Source: Escherichia phage BUCT823. From it: a stretch of 40,637 bases of DNA. Each line of letters starts with the position of its first letter. Position 1 is the first letter of the stretch. A program made the position numbers and the translations under genes. Of this stretch, positions 21,744 to 22,517 are shown piece by piece. Under the pieces are notes generated by a model. The model saw only the letters and a list, made by a program, of their open reading frames with translations. It ran no database searches and was not told the origin of the DNA. Location: the sequence record PQ729991.1; one strand, written 5' to 3'.

Positions 21744-22095
21744 CGTTTCTACCCTCGAAAATAGCGTCTAAGCTCATGATGATGTCAGATTCAAACATGC
21801 CTATATTCTGGCCTGAAACGGTGCTGTATGCCACTAAATCCGACCATCTTAACTGTTCGCGCGGGTACATCTTGATGCCATCGTCATCCACTCGGCGGGT
21901 AAATTTGATTTCCCGGTACTTCTCGAAGGTGGTTAATAGCTCAGGGGGGCATTCCGGCCCGGTGTCCTGCGTTGCTTCCGGCGCATCTTGCATAACCCCC
22001 ATAGCAATTAGCGCGGCTTTATGCCCGTCGGAGATACTGTCAAACTCCCGCCGTTTGTGGCGAGTTATGAAGTTCCAACGGGCAAACTGGAGCAA
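21736..22095 (-). CDS. tail assembly chaperone, T-like frame, probably expressed as a G-T fusion by -1 frameshift
   Basis: lies in the -1 frame relative to 22101-22517 and stays open across the upstream stop; no ATG of its own (track start is TTG). Confidence 0.5.
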   Translation of the reverse strand: MLQFARWNFITRHKRREFDSISDGHKAALIAMGVMQDAPEATQDTGPECPPELLTTFEKYREIKFTRRVDDDGIKMYPREQLRWSDLVAYSTVSGQNIGMFESDIIMSLDAIFEGRNDG

Positions 22096-22100
22096 CGCGT

Positions 22101-22517
22101 CTACTTTTCCTGCAATTGGTGAAGCTGTTCGTTGTGGAAAACAACAACGTGTTCAGCGAGGCGTTTATATTGTGAAAAAAGAGTATTCAGGTTCTCTTTA
22201 TTAAATTCATCGTCGAGACTCCAACCGTTAACCAGTTCAAGTGCTAACTGGCGGTTAAGGTCCGTCGCGGCGTCTTCCATCTTAATGTTATATTCCGAGA
22301 AATCTTTCAGTTCCTCGCATTTATCACGAAGCGGCTTCAGTTTACCTAACGACGCGCGGTACGCCAGGGTAAATGCACGCATGGCTTTAACCGCAACGTC
22401 TGCCCCCGGTGAAACAACGTTCAGCCACTCCCCTGAATCGGTGCCGTCTTTCAGTGGGATCGGCATACGGGCGCCTTTTTCTGCCTCAGCTTCGTAATAA
22501 AAATCAGAAAGTTTCAT
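22101..22517 (-). CDS. tail assembly chaperone (lambda G-like), 138 aa
   Basis: position between major tail and tape measure genes; slippery-like GGAAAAG two codons before the stop. Confidence 0.6.
   Translation of the reverse strand: MKLSDFYYEAEAEKGARMPIPLKDGTDSGEWLNVVSPGADVAVKAMRAFTLAYRASLGKLKPLRDKCEELKDFSEYNIKMEDAATDLNRQLALELVNGWSLDDEFNKENLNTLFSQYKRLAEHVVVFHNEQLHQLQEK

What the first reader, a model, noticed from the sequence alone, without database searches (positions are those of the whole stretch)
22095..22110. Probable programmed -1 frameshift joining the two tail assembly chaperone ORFs
The ORF 21736-22095 lies exactly in the -1 frame of 22101-22517, has no ATG of its own, and its frame stays open across the upstream stop. 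Two codons before the stop the mRNA reads CAG-GAA-AAG-TAG, giving the heptamer G-GAA-AAG, which is one substitution away from the lambda G/GT slip site G-GGA-AAG. A fused product of about 255 aa would result.
Basis: partly seen in the sequence, partly recalled or inferred. Interest (0 to 1): 0.45.

Follow-up and report, generated by a model that had tools for sequence, protein, structure and literature searches.

The report
Tail chaperone frameshift site, already annotated
This is the usual phage trick in which a few ribosomes slip back one base at the end of a tail-assembly chaperone gene to make a longer fusion protein. It is real and well conserved, but the same site is already annotated in the type phage of this genus, so it is ordinary.

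Summary
On the minus strand, a 138-aa tail assembly chaperone gene (22517..22101) ends CAG-GAA-AAG-TAG. The next ORF is in the -1 frame, has no ATG before 22002, and runs into the tape measure gene.

The window is a Kagunavirus (Guernseyvirinae), 99% identical to E. coli phage vB_EcoS-22664BS2.

In 71 distinct junctions from relatives:
- A-AAG is invariant.
- A stop codon (TAG, TAA or TGA) follows it directly in 70.
- The wobble A before AAG never varies although that codon changes among GAA, GCA, GGA, AAA, TCA and GTA.
- Third-position variation switches from the G frame to the -1 frame exactly there.

Six distant relatives of the T domain also place a slippery run (A_AAA_AAG, A_AAA_AAA, A_AAA_AAC, G_GAA_AAG) directly against the stop.

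The K1G GenBank/RefSeq record already annotates the same 260-aa fusion with the junction ...QEK|VDAL. PHROG 15027 models the fused protein.

So this is a genuine lambda G/GT-type -1 frameshift, known by annotation but not tested experimentally. The conserved core is the tetramer A_AAG plus the adjacent stop, not the lambda-like heptamer.

A strong downstream stem-loop is predicted, but only in part of the family. Interest is low.

The parts
22101..22517 (-). G-like tail assembly chaperone ORF (138 aa, ATG 22517, stop TAG 22103..22101)
   Evidence: Pfam Phage_TAC_4, E 3.4e-8. PHROG 15027 positions 1-138, E 1.2e-49.
22104..22110 (-). Slip site G_GAA_AAG. The conserved core is A_AAG at 22107..22104.
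   Evidence: Sequence. AAAG is invariant in 70-74 distinct relatives, including the wobble A of the preceding codon. The heptamer varies: G_GAA_AAG 47, C/A/G_GCA_AAG 18, A_AAA_AAG 2, G_GGA_AAG 1, G_TCA_AAG 1, G_GTA_AAG 1.
22101..22103 (-). G stop codon TAG directly 3' of the slip site. It is a candidate 'shifty stop' stimulator.
   Evidence: A stop abuts AAG in 70 of 71 distinct Guernseyvirinae junctions (TAG 47, TAA 23, TGA 1) and abuts the slippery run in 6 of 6 distant relatives. The wobble base of the overlapping -1-frame Val codon is fixed so that a stop is kept.
21736..22104 (-). T segment read in the -1 frame after the slip (GTA GAC GCG ... TGA; 122 aa)
   Evidence: Pfam Phage_TAC_18, E 1.5e-18. 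PHROG 15027 positions 139-259. tblastn aligns from residue 1 in 490 of 495 phage records. Variation has -1-frame codon periodicity from the junction onward.
21736..22517 (-). Predicted GT fusion product, 260 aa (22517..22104 joined to 22104..21736, base 22104 read twice)
   Evidence: The homologous K1G fusion ADA82267.1 / YP_009168804.1 has the same junction, QEK|VDAL.
19407..21743 (-). Tape measure protein gene (778 aa). Its ATG overlaps the end of T (ATGGCTGA).
   Evidence: Pfam TMP_3, E 9.6e-9, below the curated cut-off. Relatives annotate it as tape measure.
22093..22098 (-). GCGTTG (family GCGYTG): Ala141-Leu142 codons whose synonymous positions never vary
   Evidence: These are the only 2 of 32 T-frame wobble sites in +5..+100 with zero entropy. 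They can pair with GC-GCGC about 80 nt downstream in 91% of cells, but there is no compensatory change. Unexplained.
22011..22098 (-). Predicted stem-loop domain starting 2 nt after the stop. It is found only in some lineages.
   Evidence: Folding 22100..22000 gives -41.8 kcal/mol, z -4.55. It is the most stable 95-nt window of the G-T region in the window's clade, SETP3-type phages, L100 and L107, but is absent in the K1G clade. There is no family-wide consensus structure.
22093..22095 (-). TTG used as the start of a separate 119-aa ORF in most GenBank relatives (rival reading)
   Evidence: This codon is CTG in 59 of 70 distinct relatives, and conserved residues V139 and A141 lie upstream of it.

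Best explanation
This is a lambda G/GT-type programmed -1 ribosomal frameshift. Most ribosomes translating the 138-aa chaperone gene stop at TAG (22103..22101) and release G. A minority slip back one base on A_AAG (22107..22104): the lysine tRNA moves from AAG to AAA. They then read GTA-GAC-GCG... in the -1 frame and make a 260-aa GT fusion that ends at the start of the tape measure gene.

By analogy with lambda, the G part would bind the tape measure protein and the T part would recruit the tail tube protein. Neither would be in the virion.

Shown here: the two-frame architecture, homology of both halves to chaperone families, coding constraint that switches frame exactly at A_AAG, and nucleotide-level conservation of A_AAG and of the abutting stop.

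Inferred: that slippage actually happens and at a low rate; that the adjacent stop stimulates it by leaving the lysine tRNA in the P site over a slowly decoded A site; and that in this phage the glutamate tRNA may also re-pair GAA to GGA through a G:U pair, so that the site behaves as a weak heptamer.
For: - Family hits for both halves. PHROG 15027 is a 259-position profile of the fused protein, and the window's G and T match positions 1-138 and 139-259.
- AAAG+T is invariant in 70-74 distinct junctions. The wobble A at -4 has 0 bits, against a median of 1.7 bits for 28 other G-frame wobble sites.
- Mean entropy by codon position is 1.07/0.91/1.59 in the G frame upstream. Downstream it is highest at the -1-frame third position, 1.34 against 0.56 and 0.69.
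- K138, V139, A141 and L142 are invariant across 10 fusions that share 42-59% identity with the window's.
- 52 of 71 junctions have no start codon in the -1 frame by +30. The -1 frame opens as late as -7 nt.
- A stop abuts the slip site in 70 of 71 junctions and in 6 of 6 distant relatives with other slippery runs.
- One relative carries the canonical G_GGA_AAG and two carry A_AAA_AAG at the same place.
- K1G ORF22B is a joined CDS whose exact 260-aa sequence equals G + VDAL....
- A_AAG is the most shift-prone tetramer in E. coli (PMC4066793). NNA_AAG sites are used naturally by cdd and IS1222 (PMC5009743). The lambda G:GT ratio of about 30:1 needs only low efficiency. GAA to GGA re-pairing via G:U is discussed in PMC10885494.
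Against: - I found no experimental evidence for the fusion protein in this phage group in the library searches run.
- A_AAG without a stimulator is barely above background in reporter assays, about 0.15%, so a stimulator is required and none is proven.
- The predicted stem-loop is not conserved across the family.
- The role of the stop is inferred from conservation only.
- One genome announcement states that there is no canonical slippery sequence (PMC6776780).
- The window's clade has a TTG 8 nt after the stop with AGGA 12 nt upstream, so some independent initiation cannot be excluded.
Confidence: 0.85

Rival explanations
1. Classical two-tRNA slippage with a downstream RNA structure. Frameshifting happens on the heptamer G_GAA_AAG with GAA in the P site and AAG in the A site, driven by the stem-loop that begins 5 nt after AAG. 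The adjacent stop only ends G and plays no part.
For: - 47 of 71 junctions have G_GAA_AAG, and canonical G_GGA_AAG and A_AAA_AAG occur at the same place.
- The window has a strong predicted structure: -41.8 kcal/mol, z -4.55, with its outer helix starting after a 5-nt spacer.
- That structure is the most stable 95-nt window in the G-T region of the window's clade.
- The invariant GCGYTG sits where a 5' stem arm would be.
Against: - 20 of 71 junctions (GCA, TCA, GTA before AAG) cannot re-pair the P-site tRNA.
- The structure is absent in the K1G clade, and there is no consensus fold or compensatory change.
- This reading does not explain why the Val139 wobble base is held so that a stop always abuts the slip site, even in distant relatives.
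Confidence: 0.3
2. There is no recoding. The downstream ORF is a separate gene started at TTG 22095 (or at the ATG at 22002), as most GenBank records annotate it, perhaps coupled to termination of G.
For: - Most relatives annotate two separate CDSs.
- AGGA lies 12 nt upstream of the TTG, and the Shashou record marks a ribosome binding site there.
- The Klebsiella phage VLCpiS11a has GTG overlapping a TGA stop.
Against: - The TTG is CTG in 59 of 70 distinct relatives.
- 52 of 71 have no start codon by +30, and in 23 the first is the ATG at +101.
- Invariant V139 and A141 and the conserved residues 139-172 lie upstream of those starts and show coding periodicity.
- The annotated starts differ from record to record: 801, 831 and 903 in locus coordinates.
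- This reading does not explain the invariant wobble A of codon 137.
Confidence: 0.07
3. Transcriptional slippage. RNA polymerase adds an extra A in the A run, and the edited mRNA encodes GT in a single frame.
For: The site contains a short A run: A4 here, A6-A9 in some distant relatives.
Against: - Many relatives have only A3 (GCAAAG) at this place.
- From my own knowledge, not checked here, productive polymerase slippage needs runs of about 7 or more.
- An insertion anywhere in the run would not require the G after the run or the abutting stop to be conserved.
Confidence: 0.02

Closest known systems
Phage lambda G/GT tail assembly chaperone frameshift (Levin et al. 1993; Xu, Hendrix and Duda 2004, as cited in PMC5009743)
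   Same: Two overlapping ORFs lie directly upstream of the tape measure gene. The second ORF is in the -1 frame without its own start. A lysine AAG codon sits at the slip site, and a long fusion and a short product share one start codon. The window's heptamer differs from what I recall as lambda's G_GGA_AAG (my own knowledge; the papers read confirm only that G_GGA_AAG is highly shift-prone in E. coli) by one base, and one relative (L066) has exactly that sequence.
   Different: - The G and T proteins belong to other Pfam families (Phage_TAC_4 and Phage_TAC_18).
- Only the tetramer A_AAG is conserved, not the heptamer.
- The stop codon abuts the slip site in essentially every member. By comparison, the average distance to the stop in annotated actinophage chaperone frameshifts is 26 nt (PMC10885494).
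- The tail tube side genes are separated from G by a three-gene block on the other strand.
Escherichia phage K1G ORF22A/ORF22B (GU196277; ADA82266/ADA82267, YP_009168804.1), type species of Kagunavirus
   Same: It is the homologous locus with the same junction sequence, CAG GAA AAG TAG ACGCG. It gives the same 138-aa and 260-aa products, and the record annotates a joined CDS with junction QEK|VDAL.
   Different: The fusion proteins are about 55% identical. K1G lacks the strong downstream predicted structure seen in the window. K1G has CTG where the window has TTG.
A_AAG / NNA_AAG low-level -1 frameshift sites in bacteria (Bacillus subtilis cdd A_CGA_AAG; IS1222 G_CGA_AAG; Sharma et al. 2014)
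   Same: The minimal slip motif is the same, and slippage depends on the single lysine tRNA moving from AAG to AAA. The codon 5' of AAG varies and modulates efficiency.
   Different: In the systematic reporter study, A_AAG reached its measured maximum (5.6%) only with an added downstream pseudoknot. Here the only family-wide neighbour of the motif is a stop codon.
Burkholderia phage KL1 gp18/gp19 (PMC3483164)
   Same: The predicted chaperone frameshift site GGGAAAC lies immediately upstream of the TGA stop of a 142-aa protein and gives a 264-aa fusion, so sizes and layout are nearly the same. KL1 gp20 is reported as similar to K1G tail proteins.
   Different: The heptamer is canonical. Homology of KL1 gp18/19 to this family was not tested here.

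Membership tests
G/GT-type tail assembly chaperone pair with programmed -1 frameshift | Two ORFs immediately upstream of the tape measure gene in a long-tailed phage | tested here: met
   G is 22517..22101 and T is 22104..21736. The tape measure gene (21743..19407) overlaps the end of T. The window is a Kagunavirus siphophage.
G/GT-type tail assembly chaperone pair with programmed -1 frameshift | The second ORF is in the -1 frame, overlaps the end of the first and lacks a conserved start codon or ribosome binding site | tested here: met
   The frame offset is 2. The -1 frame is open 49 nt upstream of the stop in the window, and 7 to 205 nt in relatives. 52 of 71 relatives have no start codon by +30.
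G/GT-type tail assembly chaperone pair with programmed -1 frameshift | A slippery sequence (X_XXY_YYZ, or at least Z_ZZN) lies in the overlap in the correct register | tested here: met
   A_AAG is in register and invariant. The full heptamer is canonical in only 3 of 71 relatives and near-canonical (G_GAA_AAG) in the window.
G/GT-type tail assembly chaperone pair with programmed -1 frameshift | Both parts are homologous to known chaperone G and T segments | tested here: met
   Pfam PF08748 (E 3.4e-8) and PF23812 (E 1.5e-18). PHROG 15027 covers both parts, and PHROG 313 also matches G.
G/GT-type tail assembly chaperone pair with programmed -1 frameshift | The -1 frame is under protein-coding selection from the slip site onward | tested here: met
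   Entropy periodicity switches at AAAG. Invariant residues start at V139.
G/GT-type tail assembly chaperone pair with programmed -1 frameshift | The fusion protein is detected, and the G:GT ratio is low and needed for tail assembly | not testable with these tools
   This needs a western blot, mass spectrometry or a reporter assay. No such data turned up in the library searches.
'Shifty stop' frameshift sites (slippage of the P-site tRNA while a stop codon occupies the A site) | The stop codon lies immediately 3' of the slip codon and is maintained by selection | tested here: met
   This holds in 70 of 71 Guernseyvirinae junctions and in 6 of 6 distant relatives. The Val139 wobble base is A 69 times, G once (giving TGA) and T once (stop moved one codon).
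'Shifty stop' frameshift sites (slippage of the P-site tRNA while a stop codon occupies the A site) | Frameshift efficiency depends on the stop codon and on release factor level | not testable with these tools
   This needs stop-to-sense mutants and RF1/RF2 titration.
Stem-loop or pseudoknot stimulated -1 frameshift (dnaX / IS911 / IS3 type) | A conserved RNA structure lies 5-9 nt downstream of the slip site, supported by covariation | tested here: inconclusive
   The predicted structure is strong in the window's clade. The RNAalifold consensus is essentially empty. 64.7% of cells pair, with little covariation. The outer helix pairs in 91% of cells but has no compensatory change.

The most novel reading that the evidence does not exclude
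In the whole Phage_TAC_18 chaperone lineage the frameshift signal may be 'slippery run + immediately adjacent stop' rather than 'heptamer + RNA structure'. The lysine tRNA would slip in the P site while the ribosome waits for a release factor. The G:GT ratio would then be set by competition between termination and slippage, and so by host RF1/RF2 activity and stop-codon context. The invariant GCGYTG five bases after the stop would be part of that context.
Probability: 0.35. Interest if true: 0.35.

Novelty: already known. Interest (0 to 1): 0.15.

Why it matters
The main value is for annotation. Many of the relatives inspected, including the 99%-identical vB_EcoS-22664BS2, list the second ORF as a separate 'hypothetical protein' with an arbitrary start. 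One genome announcement says there is no canonical slippery sequence. The comparison here shows that the 260-aa GT fusion annotated in K1G should be carried across the Guernseyvirinae. It also shows that frameshift finders limited to X_XXY_YYZ heptamers will miss it. A smaller point for recoding specialists is that this chaperone lineage keeps a stop codon directly against the slip site over deep divergence. That makes it a natural system for testing whether termination stimulates -1 slippage.

Tried and rejected
1. The word-indexed protein search with the fused 260-aa query returned only 3 hits and was uninformative.
2. The full HMMER search with the T segment found 30 representatives, all 52-165 aa. 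So no natural in-frame G-T fusion is visible at that level, and gene callers mostly start T at the internal ATG.
3. The genome-contig scan found no prophage relatives, only one likely contaminant scaffold.
4. RNAalifold on 26 diverse junctions found no consensus structure, only 3 weak pairs. Projecting the window's own fold onto the family gave modest pairing and little covariation. The averaged pair-probability matrix gave no consistent partner for the invariant GCGYTG; the best mean probability was 0.14.
5. An upstream Shine-Dalgarno-like stimulator was rejected. The AGGA next to the site is not conserved (TCGGAAAAG, AACGCAAAG), and no GGAGG-like element lies 10-14 nt upstream.
6. The alternative slip site T_TTC at 22140..22137, inside the window's overlap, was rejected. 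Neither the motif nor the open -1 frame there is conserved.
7. +1 frameshifting and readthrough were rejected on frame arithmetic.
8. The paper cited in the Shashou annotation note (PMID 25663216) is not held, so what it says about this frameshift is unknown.

Full report
**What is in the sequence**

The genes concerned are on the minus strand.

- An ORF of 138 codons starts at ATG 22517, preceded by AAGGA. It ends CAA TTG CAG GAA AAG TAG, with GGAAAAG at 22110..22104 and TAG at 22103..22101.
- The next ORF (22095..21736 as listed from its TTG) is offset by 2 mod 3, which is the -1 frame.
- That frame is open from 22152, 49 nt before the G stop. Its first ATG is at 22002.
- It ends at TGA 21738..21736, overlapping the ATG (21743) of a 778-aa ORF.
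- A slip on AAG would give a 260-aa product...LHQLQEK-VDALLQFARW....

The 8-mer AAAAGTAG is not statistically unusual by itself: 2 matches against 1.26 expected.

**What the proteins are**

- The upstream ORF hits Pfam Phage_TAC_4 (E 3.4e-8).
- The -1-frame segment hits Phage_TAC_18 (E 1.5e-18).
- The 778-aa ORF hits the tape measure family TMP_3 weakly, below the curated cut-off.
- In PHROGs, family 15027 ('tail assembly chaperone') is a 259-position profile. The window's G matches positions 1-138 and its T segment matches 139-259. The fused protein is therefore already a recognised family.

**Where the window comes from**

- The region is 99% identical to Escherichia phage vB_EcoS-22664BS2, where both ORFs are 'hypothetical protein'.
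- It is 94-96% identical to other Kagunavirus phages of the Guernseyvirinae. 359 phage records match at the DNA level and 495 match the T segment at the protein level.
- Annotated relatives mostly list two separate CDSs, with inconsistent starts for the second.
- The K1G record (GU196277, type species) is the exception. It has a joined CDS, ORF22B.
- An exact-sequence look-up shows that ADA82267.1 / YP_009168804.1 ('tail assembly chaperone [Escherichia phage K1G]') equals G(1-138...LQEK) + VDAL.... This is the same junction on the same nucleotide sequence, CAG GAA AAG TAG ACGCG. The same protein is also recorded under two further accessions, at least one from phage vB_EcoS_fKuEco01.
- The genome announcement of phage Shashou instead states that there is 'no canonical slippery sequence' (PMC6776780).

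**Comparative test**

I collected 107 loci from IMG/VR, GenBank phages and one genome scaffold. They give 70-74 distinct junction sequences, and fusion-protein identity goes down to about 42%.

1. The five bases AAAG+T have zero entropy.
2. The A at -4 is the wobble base of codon 137. That codon varies (GAA, GCA, GGA, AAA, TCA, GTA), so the amino acid is not conserved, yet the A never changes. The 28 other G-frame wobble positions in the 84 nt upstream have a median of 1.7 bits and a minimum of 0.82, and none is invariant.
3. Upstream of the site, variation peaks at G-frame third positions: 1.07/0.91/1.59 bits. Downstream it peaks at -1-frame third positions: 1.34 against 0.56 and 0.69. The change of frame occurs at AAAG.
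4. K138, V139, A141 and L142 are invariant in the fusion alignment, and residues 139-172 are well conserved.
5. The window's TTG at 22095 is CTG in 59 of 70 relatives. 52 of 71 have no ATG/GTG/TTG in the -1 frame at or before +30 nt, and in 23 the first start is the ATG at +101.
6. The -1 frame opens between 205 and only 7 nt before the G stop. In the tightest cases the shift must occur within the last two or three codons.

Together these results exclude an independent T gene as the conserved mode of expression. They locate the shift at A_AAG.

**The heptamer against the tetramer**

The heptamer counts are as follows:

| Heptamer | Distinct junctions |
|---|---|
| G_GAA_AAG | 47 |
| C_GCA_AAG | 11 |
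| A_GCA_AAG | 5 |
| G_GCA_AAG | 2 |
| A_AAA_AAG | 2 |
| G_GGA_AAG | 1 |
| G_TCA_AAG | 1 |
| G_GTA_AAG | 1 |

The 71st junction, L081, keeps C_GCA_AAG, but its stop lies one codon further on.

About 28% of junctions, however, cannot re-pair a P-site tRNA.
- The common element is the tetramer A_AAG. In E. coli this is the most shift-prone Z_ZZN motif, but alone it is barely above background (about 0.15%); it reached 5.6% with a pseudoknot (PMC4066793).
- It is used naturally as NNA_AAG by B. subtilis cdd and by IS1222 (PMC5009743).
- Re-pairing of the GAA-decoding tRNA on GGA through a G:U pair has been proposed for other phage chaperone sites (PMC10885494). The window's site may therefore act as a weak heptamer.
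- Low efficiency is what the system needs: lambda G:GT is about 30:1.

**The adjacent stop**

- A stop follows AAG directly in 70 of 71 distinct junctions: TAG 47, TAA 23, TGA 1.
- The exception, L081, has AAAG TTA TAG.
- The stop overlaps the -1-frame Val139 codon. Its wobble base is A 69 times, G once (making TGA) and T once (the stop then moves one codon). Other T-frame wobble sites have a median of 1.5 bits.
- Six much more distant T-domain relatives were reached through the representative search and contig look-ups. Their T segments are about 33-39% identical to the window's, and their G genes carry no Pfam hit on record. All of them place the slippery run directly against the stop:

| Locus | Slippery run | Stop |
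|---|---|---|
| L115 | A_AAA_AAG | TAG |
| L116 | A_AAA_AAG | TAG |
| L117 | A_AAA_AAA | TAG |
| L118 | A_AAA_AAG | TAA |
| L120 | G_GAA_AAG | TAG |
| L122 | A_AAA_AAC | TAG |

- For comparison, annotated actinophage chaperone frameshift sites lie on average 26 nt from the stop. Burkholderia phage KL1 has been described with GGGAAAC immediately before its stop (PMC3483164).
- I therefore think the stop is part of the signal, a 'shifty stop' with the lysine tRNA in the P site. This is an inference from conservation. Selection on the exact C-terminus of G is an alternative that I cannot exclude.

**RNA structure**

- The 101 nt after the stop fold to -41.8 kcal/mol (z -4.55). An outer helix starts 2 nt after the stop and an 11-bp stem starts 17 nt after it.
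- A similarly strong fold (z -1.4 to -5.3, below -2.3 in all but one member) is seen in the window's clade. SETP3-type phages, L100 and L107 also have strong folds (z about -3 to -4.2).
- The K1G clade has none (z about -0.1 to -1.7).
- RNAalifold finds no consensus structure. Projecting the window's fold onto 26 diverse sequences gives 64.7% paired cells and little covariation.
- Two synonymous sites just after the stop (GCG YTG, 22098..22093) are invariant within the Guernseyvirinae. They could pair with GC-GCGC about 80 nt downstream (91% of cells paired), but there is no compensatory change. They are not invariant in the distant relatives.
- This remains unexplained. A structure may add stimulation in some lineages, but it is not the family-wide feature.

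**Rivals**

- Independent initiation at the TTG or ATG is contradicted by points 2-6 of the comparative test.
- Transcriptional slippage is unlikely on A3-A4 runs, and it would not explain the conserved G and stop.
- +1 frameshifting and readthrough are excluded by frame.
- The live uncertainty is within the frameshift model: single P-site slip helped by the stop, or A/P-site tandem slip helped by structure.

**Verdict**

This is a real, strongly conserved lambda G/GT-type -1 frameshift site. It is already annotated at the homologous position in the type phage of the genus and is embodied in a PHROG family, so it is not new.

What this analysis adds:
- The conserved signal is A_AAG plus an abutting stop, not the heptamer.
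- This arrangement extends to distant members of the T-domain family.
- Many database records of this phage group under-annotate the fusion.

No experimental confirmation was found in the literature searches I ran.

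Noticed in passing
window 22557-24595 (+ strand), with 24977-24996: Three plus-strand genes sit between the minus-strand tail genes (25001-26173, PHROG 290 'minor tail protein') and G. They are a superinfection-immunity protein (Pfam Imm_superinfect), a 384-aa protein that relatives call phosphatase or phosphoesterase, and an HNH_3 endonuclease. As a result G appears to head its own transcription unit. A terminator-like hairpin readable on both strands lies at 24977-24996, and a promoter-like site (10 of 12 matches) lies at 22615-22643 on the plus strand.
   Followed up: partly
window 22093-22098 (- strand): The synonymous third positions of the Ala141 (GCG) and Leu142 (YTG) codons are invariant in 74 distinct relatives. 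They are the only two of 32 such sites in the first 100 nt of T. A possible long-range partner lies about 80 nt downstream, but there is no covariation.
   Followed up: partly
window 22137-22140 (- strand): A second weak slip motif, T_TTC (GTT TTC), lies inside the part of the overlap where the -1 frame is open in this phage. Neither the motif nor the open frame there is conserved in relatives.
   Followed up: yes
L114 (NZ_JACVEL010000023.1, Taishania pollutisoli CZZ-1 scaffold23): A 13-kb scaffold of a genome assembly labelled Taishania pollutisoli (not an enterobacterium) carries a G-T locus 91% identical at protein level to the window's. The junction matches Salmonella Jersey-like phages. 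This looks like phage contamination of the assembly rather than a prophage.
   Followed up: no
L023 / L036 (IMGVR_UViG_638275545_000001, 40,793 bp): In this phage contig the G ORF is interrupted by a stop after 37 codons. The contig has the same length as Salmonella phage SS3e AY730274.2. An indel or sequencing error in an old record is the likely cause.
   Followed up: no
G stop codon across relatives (window 22101-22103): TAG ends G in 47 of 71 distinct junctions and TGA in only 1. A crude ORF set from the window uses TAG in 6 of 52 and TGA in 22 of 52. The choice is partly forced by the overlapping Val and Asp/Glu codons of T, so it may or may not reflect a preference for an RF1-only stop.
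   Followed up: partly
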